From the IMG/VR virus record IMGVR_UViG_3300048631_000217: 64,000 nucleotides of DNA. One strand, 5' to 3'. Each line of letters begins with the position of its first letter. Position 1 is the first letter of the stretch. Source of the stretch: a virus. Lineage: Duplodnaviria; Caudoviricetes. Below are positions 9,749 to 47,398 of the stretch, piece after piece. A program made the translations under genes and the position numbers. The notes beneath the pieces were generated by a model that saw only the letters and a list, made by a program, of their open reading frames with translations, was not told the origin of the DNA and made no database searches.

Positions 9749-9808
9749 GTTGTACCTCTTTTCTATCGCTTACATGATGAATATAGGCGCAAGAAAACGG
9801 TTTGTCAA
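9749..9808 (-). promoter_or_regulatory. Early promoter/leader module, copy 1
   Basis: TTGACA (9808-9803), 17 bp, TATATT (9785-9780), CATCATGTAAGCGATAG, AAAAGAGG RBS, ATG 9748. Confidence 0.85.
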
Positions 9809-10119
9809 CTATCTGATTGAAGATATTTCTCAAGTTTTGTGTATTTTTTGCGGATCGCTTCGCTGATATCTTCTTTTGACAAAATTCCCCGCCCGGTCAA
9901 GGTTTCCACTACTGCAATCAAGTCACCGACTTCTTCCGAGATACGTTCGGTGTTCGTTAGAGGTTGACCCGGTTGCACTTCACTCAACCCGAAACGTAGG
10001 GCTTTACTGACACGTTGGCCGACCTCACAACATTCTTCTGCAAGAATGGTCAACAATTCCCGATCAAGACCTTCGGGCGGGGATTCCGGGCTTACGAACT
10101 TAATGGTATTTTCTGTCAT
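9805..10119 (-). CDS. MazG-like NTP pyrophosphohydrolase domain protein
   Basis: ILAEECCEV...SKALRFG...EEVGDL. Confidence 0.75.
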   Translation of the reverse strand: MTENTIKFVSPESPPEGLDRELLTILAEECCEVGQRVSKALRFGLSEVQPGQPLTNTERISEEVGDLIAVVETLTGRGILSKEDISEAIRKKYTKLEKYLQSDS

Positions 10120-10697
10120 CCCAAAACCTGATCATATTCAGAACCTTTAACAAATTTGTAAACTTTGGCATTCCCATAAATCCGCGAGAAACCATAGACT
10201 TGAGCATCACCGTAAACCTGAGCATCACCGTAAACCTGAGACTTTCCAGAAATTTTAGCATCCCCGTAAACCTGAGCATTCTCGAAAATCTGAGCATACC
10301 CGGAAACCTGAGCATTCCCGTAAATCTGAGCAATCCCGGAAATCTTCGCCCACCAGAAAACTTGAGAATTCCCGGAAACCCAAGCATCCCCGAAAACATG
10401 TGCATAACCGGAAACACGAGCATTCTCGGAAACCCAAGCATTCTCGGAAACCCAAGCATTCTCGGAAACATGAGCCTTCCCAAAAACACGAGCATCCGGC
10501 CCGACATAGGCGGTTTCGGCGACATACGCGGTGTCCGCGACCCATCCGCCGCCGTTCGGGTGTCGGTGGGCCGGTACAGGGCCTTGGCCGTCTTCAAAGT
10601 CAAACAGGTGACGGCATTCAGCTTTCCCATCAATTTTTTCAAGGAAATCCTGAAGTTCATCAACAGTCTTGAACTCGAATGATACAGTCAGATTCAT
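10116..10697 (-). CDS. Hexapeptide-repeat (left-handed beta-helix-like) protein, copy A
   Basis: About 19 A-x-V/I-x-G/E-x repeats after FDFEDGQGPVPAHRHPNGGGWVADTAYV. Confidence 0.8.
   Translation of the reverse strand: MNLTVSFEFKTVDELQDFLEKIDGKAECRHLFDFEDGQGPVPAHRHPNGGGWVADTAYVAETAYVGPDARVFGKAHVSENAWVSENAWVSENARVSGYAHVFGDAWVSGNSQVFWWAKISGIAQIYGNAQVSGYAQIFENAQVYGDAKISGKSQVYGDAQVYGDAQVYGFSRIYGNAKVYKFVKGSEYDQVLG
10484..10606 (-). repeat. 123-bp dispersed inverted repeat (partner 47409-47531)
   Basis: Manual alignment: 6 mismatches in 123 bp. Confidence 0.9.
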
Positions 10698-10740
10698 GAA
10701 AGTCTCCCGTAAACCTTGCTAAGACGTAGAAGCAGGGGCT

Positions 10741-11283
10741 TTATGCCCCTGCCCCTTCTTCTGCCCCCGCATTTTCAGCATCTGCCGCATCGTCTTCAGC
10801 AAGTGCCGCCTCTTCCGGCAGAGGTTCGCCCACCGGCCAGTAGCCCGTTCCGGTATTGGCGATCTTGTCCTTCATCAGCCACAGCTTGTTGCGCAGGAAG
10901 GCGATTTCATCCTTCGAGTCAAACACCATACCCTCCGTACGCATCATGATCAGGATTTGGTCAAGCGGCAGGGGTTCGCCAGCGGCCTTCACGATTTCGA
11001 TAGCCTTTTCGGCAATCGATTCCTTATCCGGGTTGTTGCTCTTGCGACCGCGACGGCCCGGCGTCGGCGCACGAGACAGGGCTTGTGCGATGTCCGAAAA
11101 ATCGCCGGCATCCTTGTCGCGCATCTTGATCGACATGTTCAGGAAAGCCACGGTTTGCGAACGTTCGCGGTTCAGAAGGTCGATTTCACGCTTTTCGCGT
11201 TCCATGTTTTCCACGATAGCCTTCAGGCGGTCATCAATGGCCTTGATGCGCGTTTCGGCAGCTTTGATTGGCGACTTCGACAT
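10741..11283 (-). CDS. Coiled-coil plus winged-helix-like DNA-binding protein
   Basis: Start MSKSPIK after GAAAGGAA RBS; N-terminal coiled coil; AIEIVKAAGEPLPLDQI...LRNKLW...GYW; acidic tail. Confidence 0.6.
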   Translation of the reverse strand: MSKSPIKAAETRIKAIDDRLKAIVENMEREKREIDLLNRERSQTVAFLNMSIKMRDKDAGDFSDIAQALSRAPTPGRRGRKSNNPDKESIAEKAIEIVKAAGEPLPLDQILIMMRTEGMVFDSKDEIAFLRNKLWLMKDKIANTGTGYWPVGEPLPEEAALAEDDAADAENAGAEEGAGA

Positions 11284-11323
11284 TTGGTTAGTTCCTTTCA
11301 AGTTGGTTCGTTTCGATGACCAA

Positions 11324-11352
11324 CATATAACCGGGCAACCATAACCCGACAA
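11324..11352 (-). promoter_or_regulatory. Probable sigma70-type promoter
   Basis: TTGTCG-N17-TATATG about 40 bp upstream of ATG 11283. Confidence 0.5.
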
Positions 11353-11420
11353 GAGGAAAAATCGAAAAACATCACACCATTACCGCGCAATATATACAAC
11401 CTATTGATATACCTATGTTT

Positions 11421-11762
11421 TTAGTCGTCAAAAAATGCGGACAACCCGACCGAAACCGGGGCTTTCTCGGGCATGTCTGCCCCATACTGTCGCAGATGTC
11501 CTAGCGCATCTGTCACGATGGATGGCAGTTTGGTAGGGGCCAGTAGGGTTCCGGCGTCAAGTTCCTCAGCCGTGATCAGTGACTTGTGGCGGTGTTTGAT
11601 ATCAGACCAATGCTGCAACATGTACTTGGCCAGAGAGTCAAAAGCAGAATCCGTCAGAATCGGGGAATCCTCGACATAATAGGCAACAGACGCCATTAGA
11701 TACCAAGGGACAGTCATGTTCTTGTTATGTTCAACAATCCCCCACATGGAGTCATCCATCAT
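11421..11762 (-). CDS. Stand-alone NAD-dependent DNA ligase subdomain Ia-like (Nlig-Ia) protein
   Basis: AYYVEDSPILTDSAFD resembles LigA Ia YYxxDxPxxxDxxYD; start overlaps gp43 stop. Confidence 0.7.
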   Translation of the reverse strand: MMDDSMWGIVEHNKNMTVPWYLMASVAYYVEDSPILTDSAFDSLAKYMLQHWSDIKHRHKSLITAEELDAGTLLAPTKLPSIVTDALGHLRQYGADMPEKAPVSVGLSAFFDD

Positions 11763-14263
11763 CCGAAAAAATCCTCTAGAGTGGCAACATGCTCCAACTG
11801 CCACCCAACCACATCGGTAATGGCACGAATCGGCCCGAGAAACGCCTTTTCAAACTGAGTGTCGAAGTCAACAAATTTCTGAATATCATCAAACCCCGCC
11901 GGTATCCCGTCAGGAAAGGCAATGATGTTGGATCGGACAGGATTAGGCATGACCAGATAAGCGAATCGGATCTTGTCACCATTCCGCAGCATCTGTAGGC
12001 TCTTATCAAGCCCCCTATTGGCAACCTCACGATTAAAAACCAATGCCCCCCTCACATGCGCAGGACATTTAGGTTTCCATCCATGCACATGATCATAGTA
12101 TTTCGTGATACCATTCACCCCGCGCGGGAAGGCGATTTGTTCAAAAGGTAAGGTCTTGAACTTTTTTCGGAAATTCTCGACAAAGGCAATGATTTCGTCA
12201 TTGTCGCCTGACATGATTATTTTCAGGGCACCTTTCATGGCCTCACGACAGGCGGCGGGAGTGGATGATTTGACAACCTCGATACCCATATATTTCAGTT
12301 CGGGTTCGGGAAATGCCACCCCCTCATTGTTCCAGACATTCAAGACATAATGTTTCTTGCCTGTCCACACACCTCTATCCGCGATACATTCACGCTTCAT
12401 CTTCATCATCTGTCGGAACGCATTCACGTAATCCGCCAGCTTCTGATAGGATTCGTCAATATACGGCTCAAACGCCTTAGAGCATACCTTGTCCAGATAA
12501 TCGACTATCTCTTTCTTGTCACTGCCATCTGGATACCTTTTGGTGACGATATCCGCCATGTTGATATAGATGGAGTCCGTATCGGATGCAATCACATAGT
12601 CAACCCCGTCAGTCTTCAGTAAACGATTCATATAGGCATTGATATCACGTTCAATCCACCGAATCGACAATTGACCGGCCATGGTCACGCTTTCGGCATG
12701 ATCAGGGTTGAACCACCGGAAGTATTGATTGGCCAATGCACCATATGCTGAGTTTAATTGGACCTTACGCGCCCCCTGAGCCTTATCATAACGGACATGT
12801 AGTTTCTTAGCATCCAAATCACCTGTTGCCTTATAGATACCTTTTTGCTCTAGCGACATGGATTTGTAACGTTTACGTTCCGTATACAGCTTATCCATCA
12901 ATTCGCCTAGGAATCCCTGCCCTTCCCTATTCCAGACACATCCATTGGGGGTAATGGTCACATTATCGTCTATCAACTCTTTCCGCATCGCGGCTAAAGA
13001 ACCGCCCAATACGTTATCTACCGTCACCCCGTCCCGTTTCTCGACAAACTTTTCTGGGGAAATGTTGTAGCCTGATATCAGGTGCGGATAGAGTGAGTTA
13101 AGGTCGAATGACACGACCCAATCATACGCCCCCGGAACAGGGTCTTTCACATACCCGCCCGAGATCTTGTTGAAGTATTGGGAAGTCTTTTTCTGTGGTA
13201 CAACGATCTTTTTGTTCATCAGGTAGTTGTGGATAATCACATCCCACATACGCACTGACGTTAACGCATCCACGAAATTGATCTTGGCGTCATAGGCAAT
13301 GCTTATAGCCAAGTCGATGTATTTCAACTTGTCTTCGAGCATGTCAATCAATTCGGTATCGCGGATGTTGTATTCCGTGAATCTTTGGAAATCGTTCACA
13401 TAGAATTCATGCAGGCTTCCGTATTCAGAATAGTCAAGCTTCTTTTCGCCTAATTCAAGTTCACCGATGAAATCAAGCTTGTAGGATTCCCGAACGCTGA
13501 GGGTGAATTTCTTGTAAAGGGCCAGATAATCAAGAACCGCCAATCCCACCACATCAATCGTCAGTGACTTGTTGCCGTGTGAATCATAGGTATACCTATC
13601 CATGCAGATACCCCATGGCGACAGACGCTTTGCCCACGAGTCGCCCAAGACACGGGTAATCCGTCGAAACAGGTAAGGTACGTCGAAAAACTCGATATTC
13701 CAGCCTGTCAGGATATCGGGGTCAAGTCGTTCGTAAGACAGGATGAATTTCCTAAGAAGGTCTTCTTCATCATGACATTTGATATAGATGACGTTATCCC
13801 TGTCTGTGACAAAATCACCACATCCAAGTACGATGAATTTCTTGCGATCAGACAAGGTAATCAGGGTGACTTCCTTGTCCGCCGTCTCGATATCCGGGAA
13901 GCCGTCATCGGACATGGTTTCGATATCGGTCGATACCACATTGATCAGGTCAGTATCATACTGGACCTCACCTTCCCAACGATCATTGATATACGGATAC
14001 ACGAAATCCGTCATACCATAGACGTTGAATCCAGCCACATCCTTGTAGCGGTCAATGAAATCCTTTGCGTCACGAATAGACTCGAAAGGAATCTTCTCGA
14101 CAAATCGGCCCGAAATGTTCTTGTATTCACCCTCACCCTTGTTCGAATCGACAAACAGATAGGGGCAGTAATCATGTTTGAACGAAAGCCTTCGCCCGTT
14201 CTGAATAGAACGGACCAAGACCTTGTTACCATATTGCTTGGCATTCAGGTAGAAATCAGACAT
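11759..14263 (-). CDS. gp43: Family B DNA polymerase
   Basis: DIET, GWNIEFFD, YNIRD exonuclease motifs; SFDLNSLYP, KVQLNSAYG, ASDTDS. Confidence 0.97.
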   Translation of the reverse strand: MSDFYLNAKQYGNKVLVRSIQNGRRLSFKHDYCPYLFVDSNKGEGEYKNISGRFVEKIPFESIRDAKDFIDRYKDVAGFNVYGMTDFVYPYINDRWEGEVQYDTDLINVVSTDIETMSDDGFPDIETADKEVTLITLSDRKKFIVLGCGDFVTDRDNVIYIKCHDEEDLLRKFILSYERLDPDILTGWNIEFFDVPYLFRRITRVLGDSWAKRLSPWGICMDRYTYDSHGNKSLTIDVVGLAVLDYLALYKKFTLSVRESYKLDFIGELELGEKKLDYSEYGSLHEFYVNDFQRFTEYNIRDTELIDMLEDKLKYIDLAISIAYDAKINFVDALTSVRMWDVIIHNYLMNKKIVVPQKKTSQYFNKISGGYVKDPVPGAYDWVVSFDLNSLYPHLISGYNISPEKFVEKRDGVTVDNVLGGSLAAMRKELIDDNVTITPNGCVWNREGQGFLGELMDKLYTERKRYKSMSLEQKGIYKATGDLDAKKLHVRYDKAQGARKVQLNSAYGALANQYFRWFNPDHAESVTMAGQLSIRWIERDINAYMNRLLKTDGVDYVIASDTDSIYINMADIVTKRYPDGSDKKEIVDYLDKVCSKAFEPYIDESYQKLADYVNAFRQMMKMKRECIADRGVWTGKKHYVLNVWNNEGVAFPEPELKYMGIEVVKSSTPAACREAMKGALKIIMSGDNDEIIAFVENFRKKFKTLPFEQIAFPRGVNGITKYYDHVHGWKPKCPAHVRGALVFNREVANRGLDKSLQMLRNGDKIRFAYLVMPNPVRSNIIAFPDGIPAGFDDIQKFVDFDTQFEKAFLGPIRAITDVVGWQLEHVATLEDFFG

Positions 14264-14268
14264 ACCGA

Positions 14269-14787
14269 TTATCGCCCGGTTGAGCCGACACCCCCGACGC
14301 GATCAGTTTTTTGGGACGGTTCAACATAACTTTCGACCAGATTGACACGATTTGTCTTGACGATTTCACCTTGGGCAATACGATCTCCGTGACTGATTTC
14401 AACATCTACATCAGAAATGTTGAACAAACTGATATAGGTTTGATGCACATAATCCGAGTCAATGATACCTTCGGCATTGGCCAGTGTCAATCCAAACTTG
14501 ATTGCGATACTGGATCTTGGATGCACTCTCAAGTTTTGAGTGGGGGCAAGATCGAATACAAGCCCGGTCGGGATAAGCGCCCGGTCGCCCGGTCGAATAT
14601 TGAATCTGCGGTTAAATACAGTCCCGTTAACGGCGGCATTAGTCTTGTCAAACACTTTCACTTCTTCACAATCAAGACACGCATATAGATCAAAACAAGC
14701 CGAACCAGAGGTTCCGTAAATCGGTAGAATTGCTTCATCGCTCAGCTTGTAGATTTTAACTTCTTCCATAACAATAACCTCTTTCAC
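14269..14787 (-). CDS. dut: Trimeric dUTPase
   Basis: SACFDL, PRSS, GIIDSDY, RIAQ, RVGGVGSTG. Confidence 0.92.
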   Translation of the reverse strand: MKEVIVMEEVKIYKLSDEAILPIYGTSGSACFDLYACLDCEEVKVFDKTNAAVNGTVFNRRFNIRPGDRALIPTGLVFDLAPTQNLRVHPRSSIAIKFGLTLANAEGIIDSDYVHQTYISLFNISDVDVEISHGDRIAQGEIVKTNRVNLVESYVEPSQKTDRVGGVGSTGR

Positions 14788-15182
14788 TGTTTTTTACCAA
14801 TGGTGTATTTTGACACCAGTTCCCAATTCGTCTTGTCTTTGAATGGGATGATCGTGACAACCGCCTTTTCGCCCAGACTCCGCATTTTCGACACGATCCT
14901 AATCAATCCCCAACTCTCTAGAAGATTTACAATCTCATACAACCTACTCAAATCAGTATCGTCTATATCCGCAGGTTTCCCGTCCAACCTAAACATCTGT
15001 TTGAAATGGACGATGTAGTATCTACCTCTCTTGTGCAGAATGTGACAGGATTGCGTCAACCTTTTCCTGTTTCTAGACGCAACCCCGATCCGTGTCAACG
15101 TCTCTTTTACCTTCAGAAAGTTCTCTTGATCCGTTAATTCTACCTCAATCAGATCCCCTAGCACGTCTTTCATTAACACCAC
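14784..15182 (-). CDS. regA: Translational repressor RegA
   Basis: FLKVKETLTRIGVAS...QSCHILHKRGRYYIVHFK; position after gp62. Confidence 0.95.
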   Translation of the reverse strand: MVLMKDVLGDLIEVELTDQENFLKVKETLTRIGVASRNRKRLTQSCHILHKRGRYYIVHFKQMFRLDGKPADIDDTDLSRLYEIVNLLESWGLIRIVSKMRSLGEKAVVTIIPFKDKTNWELVSKYTIGKKQ

Positions 15183-20143: not shown

Positions 20144-20166
20144 CTCATAGTTTTTTCACAAAAGTA

Positions 20167-20225
20167 TTGACATAGAGTGAGTCATACCCTATATTAATCA
20201 TGTAAGCGATAGAAAGGAATACCTG
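20167..20225 (+). promoter_or_regulatory. Early promoter/leader module, copy 2
   Basis: TTGACA 20167-72, 17 bp, TATATT 20190-95, AATCATGTAAGCGATAG, AAAGGAA RBS. Confidence 0.85.
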
Positions 20226-20519
20226 ATGGGCCGTTCGTATACTCCCAAATACCGCGTCGAATACCGGGACAACACCATGAACCGTCTCGGCACCGACCGC
20301 ATTTTGTCTTACGACGCGAAGCGTTACGGCAAGCCGACCGATGCCAAAGCCGAAGATTTGCGCCGTGCCTTGAACAAATCCTTCAATGTCGGCGGGGTCA
20401 ACTGGCACGTATCCGAAGCCGCCGGTGTTGTCGTGTCGGTCAACCGTCTCCGCATCATCAACCAGCGTTCGGGGCAGGTAGTGGCCGAATCGAATGCACC
20501 GATGTTCGAAGTAGTCTAA
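20226..20519 (+). CDS. Hypothetical early protein inserted antisense between gp47 and gp46
   Basis: 97 aa with promoter and RBS; stop overlaps the gp47 stop. Confidence 0.8.
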   Translation: MGRSYTPKYRVEYRDNTMNRLGTDRILSYDAKRYGKPTDAKAEDLRRALNKSFNVGGVNWHVSEAAGVVVSVNRLRIINQRSGQVVAESNAPMFEVV

Positions 20520-24948: not shown

Positions 24949-24980
24949 GTTAAAAATCCTCGTTTTCTTGTATTTATCCC

Positions 24981-25039
24981 TTGACTAAAGGTTATGTTGG
25001 CCCTATATTAATCATGTAAGCGATAGAAAGGACTGACAG
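24981..25039 (+). promoter_or_regulatory. Early promoter/leader module, copy 3
   Basis: TTGACT 24981-86, 17 bp, TATATT 25004-09, AATCATGTAAGCGATAG, AAAGGA RBS. Confidence 0.85.
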
Positions 25040-25405
25040 ATGGCCTATATCTCTACCGAAAAAGTCAAGACCATTCGCGAACGCCTGAAAGAAGCTTTCC
25101 CCCGCAAGGACGGCTGGAAGTTTTCGGTCACGCGGCGGAATGCGATGGCGGTTTGTGTCGTCATCCTTGAAGGCCCCATCGAATTCAAGGACGCTGAGGG
25201 GAACGATCTCTCCTATAGTCAGGTCAACAAATACCACATCGACCGTTTCAACGCCAAGGAATCTGCGGAAGTTCTCAAAAAGATTCTCGACATCATGACC
25301 ATTGACTACTATGATAATAGTGACATCATGACCGACTACTTCGATGTTGCCTATTATCGGGATCTGATGGTCGGTCGCTGGGATCGTCCCTACAAGAAGG
25401 TGTGA
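25040..25405 (+). CDS. LPD29-like (large polyvalent protein-associated domain) early protein
   Basis: IRERLKEAFP...KFSV...EGP...DNSDIMTDYFD pattern. Confidence 0.6.
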   Translation: MAYISTEKVKTIRERLKEAFPRKDGWKFSVTRRNAMAVCVVILEGPIEFKDAEGNDLSYSQVNKYHIDRFNAKESAEVLKKILDIMTIDYYDNSDIMTDYFDVAYYRDLMVGRWDRPYKKV

Positions 25406-25409
25406 GGCT

Positions 25410-25628
25410 ATGAACATTACCAAACCCTACAATATGTTCCGCGTTCTCGGAAAAGAGGATTTCGAAATCGAAGTCATCGGCGGCACGATCTATGCCTTCG
25501 GTAGTGAGGTAGGAACCCTGCGTCTCTTCAAGGAATACAATAAGGTCACACGTAACGAGCGAACCGATCAAGGGTTTTCTAAGAACCTGCAAAAGTTCTA
25601 TTTCCGCCTTGAACTTCGGCATAGCTAG
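25410..25628 (+). CDS. Small hypothetical protein
   Basis: 72 aa, GAGG RBS, tightly packed operon. Confidence 0.7.
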   Translation: MNITKPYNMFRVLGKEDFEIEVIGGTIYAFGSEVGTLRLFKEYNKVTRNERTDQGFSKNLQKFYFRLELRHS

Positions 25629-25630
25629 TA

Positions 25631-27115
25631 ATGAACCAGAACGATTTAAGAAAACTCTTCCAAGACGAAGGAATGTCTGTGGCCGATATCTCGAATGAAT
25701 TCGGGGTATCGGTCGCGACCGTTTATCGTAGCCTGAAAAGATTTGATCTTCTGCCAAAGACAACCAAACCATCCAAAGACGAGTTGTCAAAGGTGTATGA
25801 CAGACCCGGAATGTCGATTACCGGGCTTGCGAAGCATTATAGCAAATCTGCGGTGACGATTCGTCAATGGCTTGACGAATACGGAATCGTTCGCAAGGGG
25901 CATCTTCAGACATGTCGCGAAGTGAATGCAGGTAAACAGGCGAATACGCCCGCCCGAGACATATTCGAAAACGACTATAAGTCGCATACTATACAGGAAT
26001 TGCTAAGGAAATACAACACTTCCCCCGCAACTCTTTACACATGGATAAATGGTTTCGGGTTGTCGCGGGACCATTCTGAATCCTGTGTCAAAGCCAAAGC
26101 CGTAGAACATGCCGATATCAGGCCGGGGAAGGAAGAATTCGAACGCCTGTATAATGATCACGGAAATCTTAAATCCGTGGCTGAGGTGATTGGATGTTCC
26201 TATTCCCATGTCAGGATGTTGGCACGTCAATATGATATTGAGGTTGATAAACCGTGGCGATCACATGCGGAAAAGACCCTACAAGAGACCCTTAATACCA
26301 CCATACCTGACGGGAATTGGATTGGATGTGATCGGACCATTATCGCCCCATATGAACTTGATATCGTATCCGAACCCTATCGGATAGCCATAGAATACTG
26401 TGGTTCATATTGGCATTCTGAAGGGTTTGGACAAAAGCCGCGCGACTATCATAGGCGGAAAATGCTTTCGGTTAATGAGGCGGGTTACAGGCTCGTTACC
26501 ATCTTTGAATGGGATGATCCTGCCAAAGTCATATCTCTGATTAGAACCATGACCGGACAGACGATCCGTATCCACGGGCGAAAGACGAAACCTGTATTGA
26601 TAGAATCGAATATAGCCGCAGATTTCCACAACACTCACCACCTTTCAGGTGCTAGAGGTGGGTCTTATCATATCGGGCTGTATCATGCCGATACGCTTGT
26701 CATGGTTCTGACAATGGGCAGACCACGTTTCAAATCCAAGGCAGAATGGGAATGTGTGCGTATGACATCGCACTCGGATTACAGGGTTGTCGGCGGGGCG
26801 TCCAAACTATTCAAGGCGTTTCGGGGAATGATAGACACCGGCTCTATATTGACCTTTGCTGATCTACGTTTCGGAAACGGTTCTGTATATGAGAAATGCG
26901 GATTTGAACGTTTGAAGGATTCGCCCCCGAACTACTGGTATTTCCATAAGGATAGACCGCAATCGTGCTATTCTAGGGTCAAGTTTCAGAAACACAAATT
27001 GGTCAATGAGTTGGAACATTTTGATGATGGATTGACCGAATACGAAAACATGAAAGCAAACAATTGGGATCGTGTTTGGGATTGTGGAAATGCTGTCTAT
27101 GTTTGGGCAAAATAA
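25631..27115 (+). CDS. Hef-like free-standing homing endonuclease (HTH repeats + PD-(D/E)xK-type nuclease + GNAT/Mom-like C-terminus)
   Basis: Four HTH-like repeats; YELDIV...IAIEYCGSYWHS; VVGGASKLF...FADLRFGNGSVYEKCGF; convergent with gp23. Confidence 0.75.
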   Translation: MNQNDLRKLFQDEGMSVADISNEFGVSVATVYRSLKRFDLLPKTTKPSKDELSKVYDRPGMSITGLAKHYSKSAVTIRQWLDEYGIVRKGHLQTCREVNAGKQANTPARDIFENDYKSHTIQELLRKYNTSPATLYTWINGFGLSRDHSESCVKAKAVEHADIRPGKEEFERLYNDHGNLKSVAEVIGCSYSHVRMLARQYDIEVDKPWRSHAEKTLQETLNTTIPDGNWIGCDRTIIAPYELDIVSEPYRIAIEYCGSYWHSEGFGQKPRDYHRRKMLSVNEAGYRLVTIFEWDDPAKVISLIRTMTGQTIRIHGRKTKPVLIESNIAADFHNTHHLSGARGGSYHIGLYHADTLVMVLTMGRPRFKSKAEWECVRMTSHSDYRVVGGASKLFKAFRGMIDTGSILTFADLRFGNGSVYEKCGFERLKDSPPNYWYFHKDRPQSCYSRVKFQKHKLVNELEHFDDGLTEYENMKANNWDRVWDCGNAVYVWAK

Positions 27116-27137
27116 AAGGGGGCCGAAGCCCCCTTTT
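27114..27137. terminator. Bidirectional intrinsic terminator (cUUCGg loop on minus strand)
   Basis: AAAAGGGGGC-CGAA-GCCCCCTTTT between convergent genes. Confidence 0.9.
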
Positions 27138-27159
27138 CGGATAGTTGACCTATCTCTTA

Positions 27160-33145: not shown

Positions 33146-33156
33146 AATTTAACCTC

Positions 33157-36100
33157 TTATGCTGGCCTTAAAGCCAATGTCATAGTTGCGTAAGTGTCGC
33201 TCGTGCTGTCTCCGGTTATCGTCAATGGTGCCGGATCATATGCGCCACTATTGTTCCATTTTACCGAACCCATTAACGCAGACACGTTATAGCTTCCGCC
33301 GTCGAATGTCTGATTACTGACATTACTTAGGTAAGGCGCTGTCAGGGCTGGCATGGCGGCATCATTATGAGAAGATGTTGCAATAACAACAATCATTGAA
33401 TCTGCGGTTACGGGTGTAATCGGATTCGGATCGGGTACGCGCGTACCTTGTACCGTTCTCGTAACTGCTGCAACGTCTATAGGATTGGCCAAATTAACAT
33501 TTTTGAAAACTTGGATTGTCACAACCGAAGCTTCTGCCGAAGAACCTGTAGACGAAACGCTTAATGTCGTGTCAGGTGTTGCCCCCATGAATTTCCACGC
33601 GGCTTTCATTGAGGTATCGTTTGTACCGTTCGAAAAGAGTTGCGAGAATTCTGTATATCCGGCGGTGTTATATGTAATCGTCCTATTCGTTACTGTACCT
33701 GCACCATAAGATACCAATACGAAATCATTTTCGACTAGGTTCAAAGGTGTTAGGTCGATATTATATCCGATGTTTGCTCCGCTTGTTGCCGTCAACTGAC
33801 CAGCATACGCAACACCTGTTACAGCGGTTGTCGTGAACGAAGCTGCACTGATGGCATTGGATGTTGCTGCCGATGCGTTTTCGTGAACGAAATGAGTATA
33901 ATAGACAGTGGACGGCGTTAGACCCGCCACCGTCCCGCTTACGGTCCCTGCTGCCGACACGGCAACGCTACCGCTGGCAGGAGCCGCGACACCTGTATTG
34001 TCTTGCCCCGCCTTGATTTGGGCGGCTGTGGGGGTTGTCGCCGAAGCTGTTACCACCCAATAAACGGAACCTGTCGTGCCTGTTGTGTCCACACTCCATG
34101 TCGAACCATTCGGGCCACTTGCGGCGTTTACAGGATTCGATAGGACCGGGGCACTGACCCACGGCGAAGTGAATGTGTATGGCGAAACAAAACTCTGGTG
34201 TGGTAGGGCACCGATGACCGGCGATGCGGTTGCCAGTGGCCCGCCAGCTTTCGGCGCATAGGCTGTCGTGCCGACCGTGGCCCCCTCACCCGTCGAAGGC
34301 GCGTCGAACGCCGCCGCATATGACGCGGAATCGACCGTCAGAATTTGGTTAGAAGATGTGGTAGCGGAAAGAGACGCGATATTGTTGGTAACGTTTCCAC
34401 GAATGATACACCCACTATCATTTGTAACAGAAATACGGCTTGTGCCAGATCTTAAAGGATGACCAAGCTTTTTTACACAAACGTTGTTCTGAATCGTGCA
34501 ATTCACGGCACGGTCGATAGTGATGCCATTGACCATCGTATGTTCGATGATATTACCTTCGACTAAGGCGTTTGTGATATTGACAGGCGAGACGATATCC
34601 GTCAAGAAAATACCTTGACCTTCGGCCATGTATTCGCTTCCGACACCTCTTGTTAAAACGTTTCCTCTAACGATGATATCGTCAACATCACCTGCCGCCG
34701 CACCACTAAAGCTTCCCTGAATGAAGTCAGGATGATCGGTCACGTAACGGGCAGTACCACCACTCGTATAAGGCGTGTAGCCTGTAGAGTTTACATCAAT
34801 GGTAACATCGTTTCCGGTAACTGCGGAAATGTTGAAAACACGTCCCGCCAATTCATCGGCCCCCGTCATACCCACTAACACAAAATCGTTGGTTACTGTA
34901 ATTCCGGTAGCATCTGTTACGGTTACTACGGTCGATGTACCATAGGTGATATTCGTAATCGTATAAGGGGTATAAGAGGCTTTCTTATCAGTAAAGCTGT
35001 TGCCGATGATCTTACCACGGGCAAATGGCGACGAAACCTTGATACAGTCTTCCCAAAGACGGACACCAGTATTACCTTGAATAACGCTATCGCGGCCCTT
35101 GATATTGATACCAAGAGACACGTCAGTCATTTCGTTATTCGTAATTATAATGTTGCCGTTCAATGTGCTATTGAAGTCGATAGCCGCTTTCAAATCGCCT
35201 CTATTGTAACGGGCAGGATTTTCGGTTCCGATGAACTTGTTATTCTCTACCCGAACATAGGAAGCCTGATTTCGTCCGATAAGGGCGGTTGTTTGTCCTG
35301 CACCTCTTACATCACAATTAAAGGTCAGTTTCTCGAATGAGAAATAGCAATCCTTGATTGTGATACCATCAATTCCGATATGACCAATAATGGCCTTGTA
35401 AGGATTTTCCGATTTGACGACACAATAATTGGAACCATTCCAAGTTCCGGTAAGCTGTGCGCCTCTTTTTATACGGAAATCTGCGTCAGTAGAGTTATAT
35501 TCACCGTCACGTAATTCGATGATGTCACCCATTGCACGAGTGCTTAACTCTGCGGCAATTTCCAATTGTGACGCATTGCTTACATGCGCGACATTAGCGG
35601 GCACGGATAGAGTGATCGTTGCCGAACCCTGATCCGCCGTTACATTGATTGTGGTAGAATCCTGCCCCGCCAGACTGCCGTCGGTTGTCGGGGTAATCAC
35701 ACCTGACGTAGACAGGGTGTATCCTGTTGCTGTGCCGCCGCCAGCATCCACAACATTCGTGGCCGGAATTCCATCACTGTTGACAATCTGATAACCACCG
35801 GCCCCACCAAGAGTAAGGGCACCGATACGGGCTGTCTGGTTCGGGAAGGTCGCGGCGGTATTCGTTGTGGCACTTGCCGAAGCCGACCAAGGACCGGGAC
35901 CAACGGCGTTGACCGCGCGAGTCTGGACATAGTATAGAGTTGCGGCTGTCAAAGACCCTAGAACATAAGGATCTGTGACACCAAGAACTTCTGTCCAAGT
36001 TGTCTGATCGGTCGAATAGCGAATATCTAGCGATGTAATAGGTGAATTATTATCATTTGGCGCAACCGCCAAATCTACTGTAAATTCGTTTGATTTTATT

Positions 36101-36288
36101 TGTACTAGGGTTGGTGCGGCCATTTGTGCCGGAACATCGGTCACGGTCGCATTTACAAGAACATCTGAACCATCGTCAACTTCATAGATATCGGCCACCA
36201 GACCTGTAATAGCAAACGGCACCGTTCCCGTGGCTCTTTGCCAAGGTCCGACCGGGCTTTTTACTCTGTAGAAAATACTACGCGCCAT
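33157..36288 (-). CDS. Large appendage protein: FN3 + right-handed beta-helix (depolymerase-like)
   Basis: FN3; GDIIELRDGEY then repeated I..NN/I.GN parallel beta-helix rungs; DHPDFIQ. Confidence 0.7.
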   Translation of the reverse strand: MARSIFYRVKSPVGPWQRATGTVPFAITGLVADIYEVDDGSDVLVNATVTDVPAQMAAPTLVQIKSNEFTVDLAVAPNDNNSPITSLDIRYSTDQTTWTEVLGVTDPYVLGSLTAATLYYVQTRAVNAVGPGPWSASASATTNTAATFPNQTARIGALTLGGAGGYQIVNSDGIPATNVVDAGGGTATGYTLSTSGVITPTTDGSLAGQDSTTINVTADQGSATITLSVPANVAHVSNASQLEIAAELSTRAMGDIIELRDGEYNSTDADFRIKRGAQLTGTWNGSNYCVVKSENPYKAIIGHIGIDGITIKDCYFSFEKLTFNCDVRGAGQTTALIGRNQASYVRVENNKFIGTENPARYNRGDLKAAIDFNSTLNGNIIITNNEMTDVSLGINIKGRDSVIQGNTGVRLWEDCIKVSSPFARGKIIGNSFTDKKASYTPYTITNITYGTSTVVTVTDATGITVTNDFVLVGMTGADELAGRVFNISAVTGNDVTIDVNSTGYTPYTSGGTARYVTDHPDFIQGSFSGAAAGDVDDIIVRGNVLTRGVGSEYMAEGQGIFLTDIVSPVNITNALVEGNIIEHTMVNGITIDRAVNCTIQNNVCVKKLGHPLRSGTSRISVTNDSGCIIRGNVTNNIASLSATTSSNQILTVDSASYAAAFDAPSTGEGATVGTTAYAPKAGGPLATASPVIGALPHQSFVSPYTFTSPWVSAPVLSNPVNAASGPNGSTWSVDTTGTTGSVYWVVTASATTPTAAQIKAGQDNTGVAAPASGSVAVSAAGTVSGTVAGLTPSTVYYTHFVHENASAATSNAISAASFTTTAVTGVAYAGQLTATSGANIGYNIDLTPLNLVENDFVLVSYGAGTVTNRTITYNTAGYTEFSQLFSNGTNDTSMKAAWKFMGATPDTTLSVSSTGSSAEASVVTIQVFKNVNLANPIDVAAVTRTVQGTRVPDPNPITPVTADSMIVVIATSSHNDAAMPALTAPYLSNVSNQTFDGGSYNVSALMGSVKWNNSGAYDPAPLTITGDSTSDTYATMTLALRPA

Positions 36289-36680
36289 TATGACACCTCA
36301 ATTGATTGTGCGGTTCCATTAACCGTAACCGGGGCAAGGCTCGCAAGACCGTTGACAATGATGCTTCGCGTTCCACCGACGATATTCGTCGTCGCGTCTG
36401 AAACGGTTAACGAGAAACCGCTAGATGTACTACCACTAAGGTTCTGATATGTGATGACAACGGATACCGAACTACGCAGAGTGCTTGTCGGAATACTGAT
36501 CGTCCCGTCATTGTTATTTATGACCCATGCAGGAGTAACCGACCATTGCCCACCGCCGATGTTCTGAAAGTCGCCCGAAACAGTTACAAGCTGATTACCG
36601 GTATTGTAGTTCAGAAGAACGTCTGGAAGGGCACCGTTCGATTTCGGCTTGAGTCTAAGCGTTGGGGGAGCGAAAAACAT
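36288..36680 (-). CDS. Small structural/adaptor protein
   Basis: Ser/Thr/Val-rich, beta-rich; repeated C-terminal V.G...SI.V. Confidence 0.55.
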   Translation of the reverse strand: MFFAPPTLRLKPKSNGALPDVLLNYNTGNQLVTVSGDFQNIGGGQWSVTPAWVINNNDGTISIPTSTLRSSVSVVITYQNLSGSTSSGFSLTVSDATTNIVGGTRSIIVNGLASLAPVTVNGTAQSIEVS

Positions 36681-37246
36681 TATTGAAGGGCTTTCACTGA
36701 AACTAGGGATTTACCGTTGTTACGGGTAATATAAACGAAGAATTCGTCTCCATTTGTCGTCGTCAACAAATCCCCATCGGTCTTGGTATACCCTGTCAGA
36801 GTCACCGCACCGGCTGTCGCATTATTGACAAGATGTAGACAGATGCTTGTGTCAGATGCGGGAACGGCTAGAGTGAATGCCCCACCATTGATGGCGGTTT
36901 GCATGTTTCCGTTTGCAGGGTCTAGCGTTAGGGTAGAATTTGCTGATGTTGTTCCGGCATTATAGCTGGTGTATTGGACATTGGGATTCGTTCTTAGAGG
37001 ATACGGATTGCTTGTATCCATCTTGATTTTACCTAGGTCACTTGTATCCGAAAACAATACGCCATCGGTTTTGGTAATCGTGGCAACAGTTTTCGCTTTA
37101 CCTGTGATGTAATTCCAGATATCCGAGAATAGGAAGTTTGCCGTAGAGCCTGCTGCACTCTGAGTAGTATCAGCTACGTTTACGCCTAAGACATAATCAT
37201 TATCCGCGATGTTAGGATCTGTTCCGAATGAATTCTGCTTTGCCAT
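36680..37246 (-). CDS. Fibre adaptor protein; C-terminal domain paralogous to tail fibre 50931-53582
   Basis: NGGAFTLAVP...NNATAGAVTLTGYTKTDGDLLTTTNGDEF vs NGGSFTLGAP...NNGTAGNVTFSGWNKVYGDTLSTVNGKEF. Confidence 0.65.
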   Translation of the reverse strand: MAKQNSFGTDPNIADNDYVLGVNVADTTQSAAGSTANFLFSDIWNYITGKAKTVATITKTDGVLFSDTSDLGKIKMDTSNPYPLRTNPNVQYTSYNAGTTSANSTLTLDPANGNMQTAINGGAFTLAVPASDTSICLHLVNNATAGAVTLTGYTKTDGDLLTTTNGDEFFVYITRNNGKSLVSVKALQ

Positions 37247-37274
37247 TTTTCTTGCTCCGATTAGATTGGTTTAT

Positions 37275-37625
37275 TTAGAGTTTTCTGATAATTACGCCTG
37301 CCATGTCTTCAATGGCTGTGTTAGCCATATCCTGAATGACAGTATCGTCAGCGACCACCGATTTACCAACCTGATTTGCGGTTCTGGCGACCACATGAAA
37401 ATTAAACGCGGGACATACAATTGGTGTATTCGCCTGTAATTGAGTTGAGTTGACGTTGATCGTCGTCACACCATCAACGTCGATAAGGATATCATCCCCC
37501 CATTCGGACAATGGACCGTAACCGTGAATGGTCAGGTTATCGCCTTCAAAGGCGACAGATGAACTTTCACCATTGACCTTGATACGGAATGTTCTTATGG
37601 GTTTCTTTTCGGATAGGCTTTCCAT
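37275..37625 (-). CDS. Small structural protein, paralogue of 37630-37926, ends in IQDMAN/IEDMAG motif
   Basis: VNG...GD.L...G.GP.SEWG...I..DGV.T.NV...CPAF shared with neighbour. Confidence 0.6.
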   Translation of the reverse strand: MESLSEKKPIRTFRIKVNGESSSVAFEGDNLTIHGYGPLSEWGDDILIDVDGVTTINVNSTQLQANTPIVCPAFNFHVVARTANQVGKSVVADDTVIQDMANTAIEDMAGVIIRKL

Positions 37626-37629
37626 TATC

Positions 37630-37926
37630 TTAACCCCTCTTCAATCTGTTGCTGATAACGGAATTGACACCTACACCGAACCTGCCTAATATATCCACGG
37701 TAAATGCCGGGCAACTTATGGTATTACCTGAACGCAATTCCAATGGTGTCACGTTAACCGTAGCAACACCATCAGCCTCTATCACAAGATTCGTGCCCCA
37801 TTCCGAAACAGGCCCGTCCCCCGTAAATGATAATACATCGCCGGGAATTGCGGTCGCGGAACGCTTGCCGTTGACTAGAATAACCGGCTTGGGGGTTGGG
37901 GTTCTATTGACGAATGGGGATTTCAT
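37630..37926 (-). CDS. Small structural protein (start MKSPFV), paralogue of 37275-37625
   Basis: Shared domain; ATG 37926 directly follows the stop of 37929-38204. Confidence 0.6.
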   Translation of the reverse strand: MKSPFVNRTPTPKPVILVNGKRSATAIPGDVLSFTGDGPVSEWGTNLVIEADGVATVNVTPLELRSGNTISCPAFTVDILGRFGVGVNSVISNRLKRG

Positions 37927-37928
37927 GA

Positions 37929-38204
37929 TTATGCGGTTTCTACAAAGATACGCCCGGTATGCGCAAAGGTTCTGGCCCATACGTAATTGCTTGCCGCGCC
38001 ATATGTCAAATCTGCGGTCAAGGTTTTCAATTCACCTAGGCCGGGGTAGTATGGTAGACCGAAATCGGCAACTGGTGGGGTAACACCATCAACCGAGAAC
38101 CCGATATAGATCGGGTTTTGTCCCATATTAACGAAAGTTATCTCCGTCACGTTGCTGGCAATGAGTGTCCATGTCTCATCAAGTTTTACGTTGTTTTTGG
38201 CCAT
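37929..38204 (-). CDS. Putative head spike-base / decoration protein
   Basis: 91 aa all-beta (WTLI...ITFVN.G..PIYI...VWAR); first gene of appendage cluster in the head module. Confidence 0.45.
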   Translation of the reverse strand: MAKNNVKLDETWTLIASNVTEITFVNMGQNPIYIGFSVDGVTPPVADFGLPYYPGLGELKTLTADLTYGAASNYVWARTFAHTGRIFVETA

Positions 38205-45427: not shown

Positions 45428-45827
45428 CGGAATCCTTGCTATTCTTCAAAGCTTTCTGTAGGTCCGATGTTGACCCTATGAAGAATGTATTGTTTACAGG
45501 TTGTTCTTTGTCGGTTTCGTTCTTTTTCTTGAAACGTTCCTGTTTCTTCATATCAAGGTCTATCAAATCCTTGTTACCATCAAGTATAGTTTTGATAAGA
45601 CCGGCCATTACCTCATAGGCTCTAGGATGCTCCGAAGCCTTCGCGACATCCATAAGATCCTGTAAGGCCGAACCACCTATGGCCAGCGTATCAAGAATGT
45701 TCTGACGTGCTATCCGATAATCGGCCTGCTCATCACCTTCATCCGGTAATACGTCACCGGACAAAGGTTCTTCCCTTTCCGGTTCATACGGCACCATTCC
45801 GAGACTCTTCGATAATTTGTCTTCCAT
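45420..45827 (-). CDS. gp16: Terminase small subunit
   Basis: DYRIARQN, SEHPRAYEV, NNTFFIGSTSDLQK. Confidence 0.93.
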   Translation of the reverse strand: MEDKLSKSLGMVPYEPEREEPLSGDVLPDEGDEQADYRIARQNILDTLAIGGSALQDLMDVAKASEHPRAYEVMAGLIKTILDGNKDLIDLDMKKQERFKKKNETDKEQPVNNTFFIGSTSDLQKALKNSKDSDD

Positions 45828-45835
45828 TTCTAGAC

Positions 45836-46624
45836 CTATTCAATTTTTACAATGTAATCCCAATCATCCCCAAGCTTGATATCCGTGAATGGAATAGTTT
45901 GTGTGATATCTGTCGTAGGGGTTCCGTTAGCGGTCAATCCGGGTTGAACCGTTACCTTCTCTAGCAGATCTGTCGAAGTCATGGTGCCATATACAGATGT
46001 ATTGGCGAACTTGATGACTTTCTTGTTTGTGACGGGGCCAAAATAGTATCCCTTTAAGGTGAATTGCAGCGTCCATGTCAGAATACGTCTTTCCTCGAAC
46101 GTGCCTTCGTATTGGTCTTCGGATGTGACAGAATTGAGAATGATCGGAACATCCCAATAGATTTCCAAATCGTCTATCAGGCGTACGCTACTTGTCCATT
46201 GCGGCTTGAAGAATGGTAAAATCTGTTCCACGATCTTCAAGGCGTCTTCGGGGTACTTGGCCATGATATTCAATTCTATCTGGATATCATACGGGGCCGG
46301 GTAGAAATGTTTCTTGAAATAGGAAGCATCTATTGCCTGCGCCCTTACATTCTGTAATGATGATTGGGCGCGTGTCCCGTCATATTCCATTGACATGATT
46401 TCGAAAGACATTCTCGGAAGAACGATAGCCGGTGCCTTGAATTCGGGGTCTTGTTTGACCTTGGACAAGAATTTCTGTGCCGGGCCATATGCCAGAGGAA
46501 CCTTGAATTTCTGGATTTCTACGTTGGTGTTGTCGGTTCGGGAAATGCTGATATCATTGAATATCGTCCCGAACATCACCATATATCTACGTGTAGTCTC
46601 GTTATAGAAGTCATATCCGAACAT
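45836..46624 (-). CDS. gp15: Tail sheath stabiliser / terminator
   Basis: FGTIFNDI, VPLAYGPAQKFL, LPRMSFE, VEQILPFFKP. Confidence 0.94.
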   Translation of the reverse strand: MFGYDFYNETTRRYMVMFGTIFNDISISRTDNTNVEIQKFKVPLAYGPAQKFLSKVKQDPEFKAPAIVLPRMSFEIMSMEYDGTRAQSSLQNVRAQAIDASYFKKHFYPAPYDIQIELNIMAKYPEDALKIVEQILPFFKPQWTSSVRLIDDLEIYWDVPIILNSVTSEDQYEGTFEERRILTWTLQFTLKGYYFGPVTNKKVIKFANTSVYGTMTSTDLLEKVTVQPGLTANGTPTTDITQTIPFTDIKLGDDWDYIVKIE

Positions 46625-47277
46625 TACCAACTACCCCCTGCCGAAAATGGATCGGCTTCCGAAAAATCAATGAACGTGTTTGCGGTGTTCTGGATCGTTG
46701 TGTTATCTGCCCATGGGTCAATGTCTTCAATATCCGTGTTGGCCGTCATGTCGTAATCAGCGAACAATGCGTCTATCTCGGCATTACCTGTCTGGAACCT
46801 TTGGTTACTGTATTCCAGCAACTCAACCTTCAAATCGTACATCTGAAGCTTACCGAATTGATAGAAGATTGATTCATGTTCAACGTGCATGATTTCGAAC
46901 ATTTTCCTGTTCAAAGGGAAATAGATCAAATCGCCCTCATCAGGTCTAGGGAGTCCTGTCGGTGTGCCGATAGACTCGTTGAACCGCTTGATGGCTACCG
47001 ATAGTGTCATGGCATCCCGTATCTGGATACCGAATTTGGAAAAAAGGTCGCCTTCGCCCTCGAACGAGTCCACGTTCTTGATGTACATTTCGATAGCATC
47101 CGCTCTTTGGAACAAAGGCAGATCATCGGAGTTCATCAGCTTGTCTTCCGACCCAAGAGTCCGGGGCAGATAGAAAACATCAAGACCGTGTATCTTGATT
47201 GATTCTATGATCAGGTCTTCTATAAGACCTTGTTCGCCAGCATGACCAAGTTGTGTGAAATAGCTGTTTGTTGCCAT
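46624..47277 (-). CDS. gp14: Neck protein
   Basis: EQGLIEDLIIESIKIHG, FSKFGIQIRD, PDEGDLIYFP. Confidence 0.94.
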   Translation of the reverse strand: MATNSYFTQLGHAGEQGLIEDLIIESIKIHGLDVFYLPRTLGSEDKLMNSDDLPLFQRADAIEMYIKNVDSFEGEGDLFSKFGIQIRDAMTLSVAIKRFNESIGTPTGLPRPDEGDLIYFPLNRKMFEIMHVEHESIFYQFGKLQMYDLKVELLEYSNQRFQTGNAEIDALFADYDMTANTDIEDIDPWADNTTIQNTANTFIDFSEADPFSAGGSW

Positions 47278-47338
47278 GTTCCTACCATTATTCAGATATT
47301 TCAGTTATTTAGTAGGGGGAATTTTTCGTATTACTCAC

Positions 47339-47398
47339 TTGACAAAGTGTTTGGGAGAACCTATATTCATCATGTAAGCGATAGGAAAGGAATCAGAA
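47339..47398 (+). promoter_or_regulatory. Early promoter/leader module, copy 4
   Basis: TTGACA 47339-44, 17 bp, TATATT 47362-67, CATCATGTAAGCGATAG, GAAAGGAA RBS. Confidence 0.85.

What the first reader, a model, noticed from the sequence alone, without database searches (positions are those of the whole stretch)
9749..47398. Four-copy promoter-leader-RBS module driving accessory genes wedged into core operons
Seen: four loci (9749-9808 minus; 20167-20225, 24981-25039, 47339-47398 plus) share TTGACW-N15-CC-TATATT-(A/C)ATCATGTAAGCGATAG, then a purine RBS and ATG. The spacers differ, but the 16 nt after the variable base next to the -10 box are identical, which promoter function alone does not require. 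Each heads an unrelated gene: an OB-fold protein with its own terminator before uvsX, an orphan between gp47 and gp46, an LPD29-like/Hef operon between gp3 and gp23, and a hexapeptide protein between gp14 and gp13. Three are antisense to the operon they interrupt. Known analogue: PeSL promoter cassettes of RB49/phi1-type phages. Inference: a portable early-expression module that recombines through its conserved core to capture or shuffle genes, and/or an operator or leader RNA for coordinated control.
Basis: partly seen in the sequence, partly recalled or inferred. Interest (0 to 1): 0.8.

Follow-up and report, generated by a model that had tools for sequence, protein, structure and literature searches.

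The report
Shared early promoter-leader on phage accessory genes
A T4-like phage puts the same strong host-type promoter, short leader and ribosome site in front of four unrelated accessory genes inserted among its core genes; this is a tidy variant of the early-promoter cassettes already known in T4-type phages, not a new kind of element.

Summary
There are four exact copies of ATCATGTAAGCGATAG (0.03 expected by chance). Each sits in the layout TTGACW-N15-CC-TATATT-M-[16-mer]-SD-ATG. The window holds no degenerate copies, and this is its only dispersed non-coding repeat.

All other genes in the window lie on the minus strand. The three plus-strand gene islands are each headed by the module. 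In distant relatives gp23|gp3, gp47|gp46, gp13|gp14 and gp43|uvsX are adjacent, so all four modules sit in lineage-specific insertions.

One correction: the "gp13" next to the solenoid gene is a second Hef-like homing endonuclease. True gp13 is 49488-50228.

The claim that promoter function does not need the 16-mer holds only in part. Its first half (MATCWTGTA) recurs in three places: a variant promoter of this genome with a different leader, the promoters of the orthologous 386-aa gene in three relatives, and other relatives' early promoters. Only about AGCGATAG is specific to this genome.

Best reading: this is the phage's stereotyped sigma-70 early promoter plus an unstructured leader of about 25 nt. 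It resembles a PeSL cassette or a moron and is kept uniform by concerted evolution and/or a phage-specific factor.

Capture of genes by recombination through the core is not supported for these four sites. The scan had already noted the same cassette family in overlapping and neighbouring windows of this genome.

The parts
9749..9808 (-). Cassette 1: TTGACA, N17, TATATT, CATCATGTAAGCGATAG, AAAAGAGG, ATG. It is the only copy oriented with the local operon. The TGA stop of the upstream MazG-like ORF lies inside the -35 box.
   Evidence: The read-through RNA folds into a hairpin that pairs spacer and upstream bases with leader, SD and AUG (-18.1 kcal/mol, z -2.2).
8588..9748 (-). Cargo 1: 386-aa protein of unknown function (phrog_2319) with an invariant Cys/His cluster and an OB-like beta-barrel.
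   Evidence: Orthologues in relatives carry their own similar promoter.
8539..8562 (-). Intrinsic terminator hairpin closing cargo 1, upstream of uvsX (7449-8513).
20167..20225 (+). Cassette 2, antisense to the gp47-gp46 operon.
20226..20519 (+). Cargo 2: 97-aa protein. Its 3' end overlaps the gp47 stop by 4 nt (convergent), and no terminator follows.
   Evidence: 48% identical homologue in an Ochrobactrum jumbo phage
24981..25039 (+). Cassette 3 (-35 is TTGACT). It stands back to back with a late-promoter-like ATAAATA box (24971-24977, minus strand) that serves gp3.
25040..27115 (+). Cargo 3 operon: LPD29-like protein (25040-25405), 72-aa ORF (25410-25628) and a 494-aa Hef-like HTH/HNH homing endonuclease (25631-27115).
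27115..27138 (.). Bidirectional terminator hairpin (AAAAGGGGGCCGAAGCCCCCTTTT) between the convergent endonuclease gene and gp23.
47339..47398 (+). Cassette 4. It stands back to back with the CTAAATA late promoter (47306-47312, minus strand) of gp14.
47399..48166 (+). Cargo 4: 255-aa YdcK-type beta-solenoid protein with an 18-nt repeat. It is 60% identical to a paralogue at 10116-10697 that has no cassette.
48172..49485 (-). Second Hef-like homing endonuclease gene, part of the same insertion between gp13 (49488-50228) and gp14 (46624-47277). It is only 24% identical to the first.

Best explanation
The four loci are copies of this phage's stereotyped early expression unit. The unit is a near-consensus host sigma-70 promoter (TTGACW, a 17-nt spacer, TATATT) with a fixed discriminator. 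The predicted start is the G of ATCATG, the 7th base after the -10 box, with a pyrimidine at -1 and a purine at +1. The leader is unstructured and 24-28 nt long (GUAAGCGAUAG plus an AAAGGA-type SD). The unit gives autonomous early transcription and translation to accessory genes that lie in lineage-specific insertions inside the replication and virion modules. Everything else here is read from the minus strand, so any gene inserted on the plus strand needs such a unit. That explains why all three plus-strand islands carry one. The islands themselves probably arrived by other routes: homing endonuclease genes in two of them, and a self-contained promoter-gene-terminator 'moron' in one. The block from CC-TATATT to TGTA is the promoter and start-site consensus of this phage clade. 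The AGCGATAG-SD part is specific to this genome and is kept identical among copies, either by concerted evolution (gene conversion between copies) or by selection from a phage-specific factor. Shown here: the sequence anatomy, the copy number, the strand logic, the insertion status, the lack of RNA structure, and the conservation pattern. Inferred: promoter activity, the start site, early timing, and the cause of the uniformity.
For: Four exact copies against 0.03 expected. These are 4 of the 5 sites matching the strict TTGACW-N15-19-TATAWT pattern in 64 kb; the fifth (22120) has no ORF behind it. All non-cassette genes lie on the minus strand and all three plus-strand islands are cassette-headed (gene tables). 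Late promoters (CTAAATA or ATAAATA) precede gp23, gp14, gp3 and other virion genes, so the cassette is a separate promoter class (the CTAAATA late motif is known from phage Aeh1, PMC1524935). In relatives gp23|gp3 are adjacent in most of about 55 loci, and gp47|gp46, gp13|gp14 and gp43|uvsX are adjacent in the larger contigs. The leaders fold no better than shuffles (z +0.5 to +0.7 in three copies). Only the co-oriented copy 1 forms an RBS-occluding hairpin in read-through RNA, as known for T4 genes e, soc, 49 and I-TevI (PMC3014915). A variant promoter about 8.5 kb before the window shares TTGACAAA..CC-TATATT-AATAATGTA and then has a different leader. Orthologues of the 386-aa gene in three relatives each have TTGACA-N17-TATCTT-(A/C)ATCTTGTA.. 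or a similar sequence directly upstream. Other relatives show TATATT-AAT-nn-T-R-TAA promoters with short leaders. RB49 PeSL promoters also share loose leader families. PeSLs are defined as a sigma-70 promoter plus stem-loop plus SD and start, a few of them occur inside conserved modules next to unknown genes (PMC2839356), and early promoters in front of novel ORFs are general in T4-like phages (PMC1524935).
Against: There are no transcript data, so the promoter, the start site and the timing are inferred from consensus. The host is unknown. The exact identity of about 31 nt among four copies, next to largely diverged spacers, is stricter than in RB49 PeSLs or in the relatives examined. Promoter and translation needs alone do not explain the invariant AGCGATAG. 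The whole genome could not be read here. Copy numbers outside the window (at least 5 more) rest on unchecked notes from other windows, except for the one variant checked.
Confidence: 0.75

Rival explanations
1. The module is a mobile recombination cassette in the strict PeSL sense. Copies recombine through the identical 26-31 nt core, and this is how genes were captured at, or moved to, these four sites. It might also produce excised circles.
For: Identity within the genome (100% over 26-31 nt) exceeds the conservation of the orthologous promoter in relatives, which is the signature of concerted evolution between copies. LPD29 homologues in two relatives lie elsewhere and have no promoter of their own. 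PeSL-mediated shuffling and mini-circles were shown for RB49 and phi1 (PMC2839356). Unchecked notes from neighbouring windows report tandem cassette arrays.
Against: Each island in this window has one cassette at one end only; the other end is a terminator or a convergent gene. Recombination between the direct copies (20197, 25011, 47369) would delete gp47, gp55, uvsW, uvsY, gp3 and more. Two islands contain homing endonuclease genes, and the gp23|gp3 junction holds Hef-like genes in three relatives (L179, L193, L201), which gives a sufficient alternative route. The 386-aa unit keeps an orthologous promoter and terminator at different positions in relatives, so there the promoter moves with its gene. 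No relative closer than 70% MCP identity was available to look for breakpoints.
Confidence: 0.25
2. The genome-specific part of the leader (AGCGAUAG next to the SD) is a shared cis-regulatory address for coordinate shut-off of cassette genes. Three routes are conceivable: the phage's RegA translational repressor, a DNA-binding repressor sitting over the start site, or pairing with antisense RNA made when operon transcription reads through the inverted cassettes.
For: These 8 nt are invariant in 4 of 4 copies, yet absent from the variant promoter of the same genome and from most relatives' promoters. The leader is unstructured, like RegA sites (PMC3014915). A regA homologue lies at 14784-15182 (phrog_242, 2.7e-51). 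The DNA motif contains AUGUAA, also present in the T4 RegA SELEX consensus aaAAUUGUUAUGUAA (PMC3014915). gp46 has no promoter of its own, so gp47-to-gp46 read-through RNA must carry a perfect complement of the shared leader.
Against: The predicted start at the G leaves AUG out of the RNA. The block is G+C-rich, whereas RegA sites are A+U-rich and at or next to the start codon. The translation-initiation regions of gp44, gp45 and regA in this window show no similar motif. There is no convincing dyad symmetry (only CTAT..ATAG). The window holds no complementary element other than the cassettes' own opposite strand. Eight unexplained bases are a thin basis.
Confidence: 0.2
3. The copies are recent duplicates without special constraint: copying was recent enough that the core has not yet diverged.
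For: Some residual similarity in the 5' half of the spacers (AA..GTT) suggests common descent.
Against: The 3' half of the spacers and all flanks are unrelated, while 26-31 contiguous bases are identical with sharp edges that coincide with functional elements (-10 box, SD). The cargo genes are unrelated. The two solenoid paralogues are only 60% identical and only one has the cassette.
Confidence: 0.05

Closest known systems
PeSLs (promoter-early stem-loops) of RB49/phi1-type T4 phages (Arbiol et al. 2010, PMC2839356)
   Same: A strong sigma-70 consensus promoter whose 3' end is the SD and start codon of the next gene. The stop codon of the upstream gene lies at its 5' edge (copy 1). It is associated with accessory or unknown genes. 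A few copies occur inside the conserved replication and virion modules. Sub-families share post -10 sequence, as seen directly in RB49.
   Different: Three of the four copies have no stem-loop; the one hairpin uses the leader itself as its 3' arm. The block from the -10 box to the SD is invariant rather than loosely similar. The phage belongs to a distant (cyanophage/phiM12-like) T4 lineage. Each island has a single cassette, so the mini-circle geometry is absent here.
Phage-specific early-promoter consensus in front of novel ORFs in T4-like genomes (Nolan et al. 2006, PMC1524935)
   Same: Each T4-like phage has its own extended early-promoter consensus, including preferred bases between -10 and +1. 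Many early promoters sit in front of novel ORFs.
   Different: Here conservation runs about 17 nt into the transcript and is exact.
Morons (promoter-gene-terminator units inserted between phage genes; concept recalled from my own knowledge of the lambdoid-phage literature)
   Same: Cargo 1 has its own promoter and its own terminator, between gp43-side genes and uvsX. The same unit occurs at other positions in relatives.
   Different: Morons do not usually share one stereotyped promoter-leader within a genome.
Free-standing homing endonuclease insertions of T4-type phages (seg, mob and hef genes; RBS-occluding hairpins, PMC3014915)
   Same: Hef-like genes are inserted between conserved genes (gp23|gp3, gp13|gp14), and the same junction is occupied by Hef-like genes in some relatives.
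   Different: The cassette drives passenger genes (LPD29, solenoid) as well as, or instead of, the endonuclease. No cleavage site was studied.

Membership tests
PeSL (promoter-early stem-loop) | Strong sigma-70-like -35 and -10 boxes | tested here: met
   10-11 of 12 consensus bases with a 17-nt spacer in all four copies
PeSL (promoter-early stem-loop) | Stable stem-loop within or next to the promoter that acts as a terminator or attenuator of upstream transcription | tested here: not met
   Three copies fold no better than shuffles (z +0.3 to +1.4). Only copy 1 forms a hairpin (z -2.2), and it occludes the RBS rather than looking like a G/C terminator.
PeSL (promoter-early stem-loop) | SD and start codon of the downstream gene at the 3' end | tested here: met
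PeSL (promoter-early stem-loop) | Preferential association with ORFans or plastic loci | tested here: met
   All four sit in insertions absent from relatives.
PeSL (promoter-early stem-loop) | Recombination between copies causing insertion, deletion or replacement, and mini-circles | not testable with these tools
   No close relative was retrievable. The geometry here argues against excision.
Moron | Own promoter and own terminator around a gene that is dispensable for the neighbouring operon | tested here: met
   Met for cargo 1 (terminator 8539-8562) and cargo 3 (terminator 27115-27138). Cargo 2 and cargo 4 have no terminator.
RegA translational operator | Unstructured, A+U-rich site at or just 5' of the start codon that is bound by RegA | tested here: inconclusive
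   The leader is unstructured and regA is present. However, the block is G+C-rich, lies 5' of the SD, and is not shared with the gp44, gp45 or regA initiation regions. Binding cannot be tested here.
Rfam RNA families, tRNA and tmRNA | Match to a curated RNA model | tested here: not met
   No Rfam hit and no tRNA in the window

The most novel reading that the evidence does not exclude
The genome-specific leader block (AGCGAUAG plus SD) is an address tag that lets the phage switch off all cassette-driven accessory genes together after the early period. This could work through RegA or another phage factor. It could also work because read-through of the core operons across the inverted cassettes (for example gp47 to gp46) makes RNA perfectly complementary to every cassette leader.
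Probability: 0.15. Interest if true: 0.6.

Novelty: new variant of a known kind. Interest (0 to 1): 0.35.

Why it matters
The finding shows how a T4-type phage from a little-studied lineage expresses foreign or accessory genes wedged into otherwise one-stranded core operons: it gives them one standard early promoter, leader and RBS. It separates which part of the conserved block is clade-wide promoter and start-site consensus (CC-TATATT-MATCWTGTA) from which part is specific to this genome (AGCGATAG). The second part is a short, well-defined target for testing coordinate post-transcriptional control or concerted evolution. It also gives a ready motif for annotating early genes in this genome. 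It does not reveal a new class of element.

Tried and rejected
Retrieving the whole genome failed: no genome is held for this window. Only three identical Logan contigs could be fetched, and they add about 10 kb before the window.

Searching the 23-nt motif in IMG/VR gave nothing.

No near relative exists in the phage collection. The best MCP identity in IMG/VR is 70%, so breakpoints at the motif could not be examined.

Rfam and tRNA scans were empty. The solenoid homologues fetched lie in unrelated phages and said nothing about the cassette. A pattern search of the 139.7-kb relative behind L280 was not possible.

Ideas considered and dropped:
- A start-stop mini-ORF (AUG UAA) or leaderless start. 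The start-site rules place +1 at the G, so AUG is not transcribed.
- A RegB-type cleavage site. There is no GGAG-RAYARAA match.
- A homing-endonuclease target at the cassette. The phage would then cut its own genome at every copy.
- A dyad-symmetric operator. Only CTAT..ATAG is symmetric.
- A late promoter on the opposite strand of the core. There is no CTAAATA there.
Full report
**Observation.** The 16-mer ATCATGTAAGCGATAG occurs four times: 9763-9778 on the minus strand, and 20197, 25011 and 47369 on the plus strand. There are no extra hits at up to 2 mismatches, against 0.03 expected. Direct reads and a regular-expression scan show the same layout in all four copies. The layout is TTGACA/T, a 17-nt spacer ending in CC, TATATT, then A or C, the 16-mer, a purine-rich SD, and ATG 5-9 nt later. 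Scans with a 31-nt core (up to 11 mismatches) and a 13-nt leader (up to 2 mismatches) found nothing else. The repeat finder lists this as the only dispersed non-coding repeat of the window; the rest is the 18-nt coding repeat of two solenoid genes. In the alignment the invariant block runs from CC to the SD. The flanks are unrelated. The spacer keeps three invariant positions, and copies 1, 3 and 4 share 7-9 of 15 spacer bases.

**Context.** The window is part of a T4-like phage with the gene order of cyanophage and phiM12-like relatives. Reading down the minus strand, the order is gp13, gp14, terminase, portal, gp21, gp22, gp23, gp3, uvsY, uvsW, gp55, gp47, gp46, gp45, gp44, gp62, regA, gp43, uvsX, gp41.
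- A greedy gene model puts every gene on the minus strand except three islands (20226-20519, 25040-27115, 47399-48166), and each island is headed by a cassette.
- The gene calls on identical Logan contigs agree with this.
- Four of the five sites in 64 kb that match the strict TTGACW-N15-19-TATAWT pattern are the cassettes. The fifth (22120-22147, plus strand) has no ORF behind it.
- Virion genes are preceded by CTAAATA or ATAAATA boxes. This is the late-promoter variant already described for phage Aeh1 (PMC1524935).
- Two of these boxes stand back to back with cassettes 3 and 4.

**Cargo.**
- Cargo 1 is a 386-aa protein of unknown function (phrog_2319), followed by a good terminator (8539-8562). 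Its family has an invariant C-x-H-C...C cluster. The model has pLDDT 86, and its only, weak, Foldseek matches are OB-fold ssDNA/RNA binders.
- Cargo 2 (97 aa) has one phage homologue, 48% identical.
- Cargo 3 is an operon of LPD29, a 72-aa ORF and a 494-aa Hef-like homing endonuclease. It is closed by a bidirectional terminator shared with gp23.
- Cargo 4 is a 255-aa YdcK-type solenoid protein.
It is only 24% identical to the first. gp13 is the next gene.

**Are these insertions?** No close relative exists in the collections; the best MCP identity is 70%.
- In about 55 IMG/VR loci that hold both genes, gp23 and gp3 are 100-150 nt apart in most.
- A minority carry inserts at that junction, and three of these contain Hef-like genes (L179, L193, L201).
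- In four large contigs gp47|gp46, gp13|gp14 and gp43|uvsX|gp41 are adjacent or nearly so.

All four cassettes therefore lie in lineage-specific insertions. Other insertions in the window ride on the minus strand without a cassette (for example 10116-11804, 5902-7462 and 30140-38204). The simplest rule is that a gene placed against the operon needs its own promoter.

**What part of the block is promoter?** Three comparisons bear on this.
1. About 8.5 kb before the window, on an identical Logan contig, there is a promoter reading TTGACAAAACCGT..CC-TATATT-AATAATGTAG. It continues into an unrelated leader of about 75 nt that contains a G/C hairpin.
2. Orthologues (41-46% identical) of the 386-aa gene in three T4-like metagenomic contigs each have their own promoter directly upstream. 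Examples are TTGACA-N17-TATCTT-AATCTTGTAGCTGATA.. and ..CATCTTGTAACC... The distance from the -10 box to ATG matches that in this phage (31 nt in L280, 30 nt in L283), and a terminator follows the gene in L280. These units sit at other genome positions: after the gp41 cluster, or next to DHFR/thyA.
3. Early promoters of other relatives read TATATT-AAT-nn-T-R-TAA with short A-rich leaders and AAAGGA-type SDs. Their similarity to this leader is modestly above background.

So CC-TATATT-MATCWTGTA is the promoter, discriminator and start-site consensus of the clade. It has a pyrimidine at -1 and a purine at +1 at the 7th base after the -10 box, which is the preferred start position (my knowledge of E. 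coli start-site selection). Only about AGCGATAG plus the exact SD is peculiar to this genome. Five other large relatives show no fixed leader within a genome. RB49 PeSL promoters show loose leader families.

**RNA level.** Leaders folded from the predicted start are no more stable than shuffles. Read-through RNAs across copies 2-4 are also unstructured. Copy 1 is the only one with co-directional upstream transcription. It forms a long imperfect hairpin that pairs its own spacer and upstream bases with leader, SD and AUG (-18.1 kcal/mol, z -2.2, 5 of 200 shuffles). This matches the T4 principle that longer transcripts sequester an RBS which the proximal promoter's transcript leaves free (genes e, soc, 49, I-TevI; PMC3014915). 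An unchecked note from another window had suggested such an arrangement. I confirm it only for this copy, and at modest significance.

**Mechanism.** The best-supported reading is a stereotyped early promoter, leader and RBS unit of the PeSL/moron kind (PMC2839356, PMC1524935). The pattern of exact identity within the genome, but divergence of the orthologous promoter between genomes, has two possible causes: concerted evolution among copies, or co-evolution with a phage-specific factor. The data do not separate them.

Capture or shuffling through the core is not supported for these four sites, for three reasons.
- Each island has one cassette only, so recombination between direct copies would delete essential genes.
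- Homing endonuclease genes in two islands give a sufficient alternative route.
- The 386-aa unit carries its promoter with it.

A RegA operator or an antisense-based shut-off remains possible but thinly supported. regA is present and AUGUAA resembles the T4 SELEX consensus (PMC3014915). Against this, the AUG is probably not transcribed and the block is not A+U-rich.

**Verdict.** The feature is real and cleanly defined, and it belongs to a known kind. The same cassette family had already been noted by this scan in overlapping and neighbouring windows of the same genome. Those notes report at least five further copies, which I could not verify apart from the one variant.

Noticed in passing
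window 22120-22147 (+): A perfect TTGACA-N16-TATAAT promoter lies in the gp55-upstream intergenic region. It has no cassette leader and no ORF behind it, and it fires antisense into the 3' end of ORF 22190-22564. It could drive an antisense or small RNA.
   Followed up: partly
window 48172-49485 (-) and 25631-27115 (+): There are two Hef-like (phrog_3339) homing endonuclease genes, only 24% identical to each other, at the gp13|gp14 and gp23|gp3 junctions. The gp23|gp3 junction also holds Hef-like genes in relatives L179, L193 and L201, so it is a recurrent landing site.
   Followed up: partly
window 8588-9748 (-): The 386-aa protein family (phrog_2319) is widespread in large phages of Vibrio, Aeromonas, Cronobacter, Rhodococcus and Streptomyces. 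It has invariant C111, H113, C114 and C139 (a probable zinc site) and an OB-like barrel. It is always annotated as hypothetical.
   Followed up: partly
window 10116-10697 (-) and 47399-48166 (+): Two YdcK-type beta-solenoid paralogues are 60% identical at the protein level and 77% identical at the nucleotide level over 447 nt. Homologues sit in early-gene arrays of unrelated phages (L266-L268). Logan assemblies of this phage break inside these repeats.
   Followed up: partly
window 20144-20225 (minus-strand reading): gp46 has no recognisable promoter of its own. Its mRNA must come from gp47 read-through across the antisense of orf97 and cassette 2, so it carries a 31-nt perfect complement of the shared leader.
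   Followed up: no
window 27115-27138 and L280 about 11160-11200: The same GGGGGCCGAAGCCCCC terminator hairpin closes the endonuclease/gp23 pair here and the 383-aa orthologue unit in a distant relative.
   Followed up: no
window 30140-38204 and 1498-4637: These are long stretches of minus-strand genes with no homologues in the four large relatives. They are further lineage-specific insertions without cassettes.
   Followed up: no
L197 (G010) 3833 and 5698, L188 4177: Relatives have their own near-identical promoter-leader sub-family (TATATT-AGATATATCAAnTCnAAA). Within-genome leader families are therefore not unique to this phage.
   Followed up: partly
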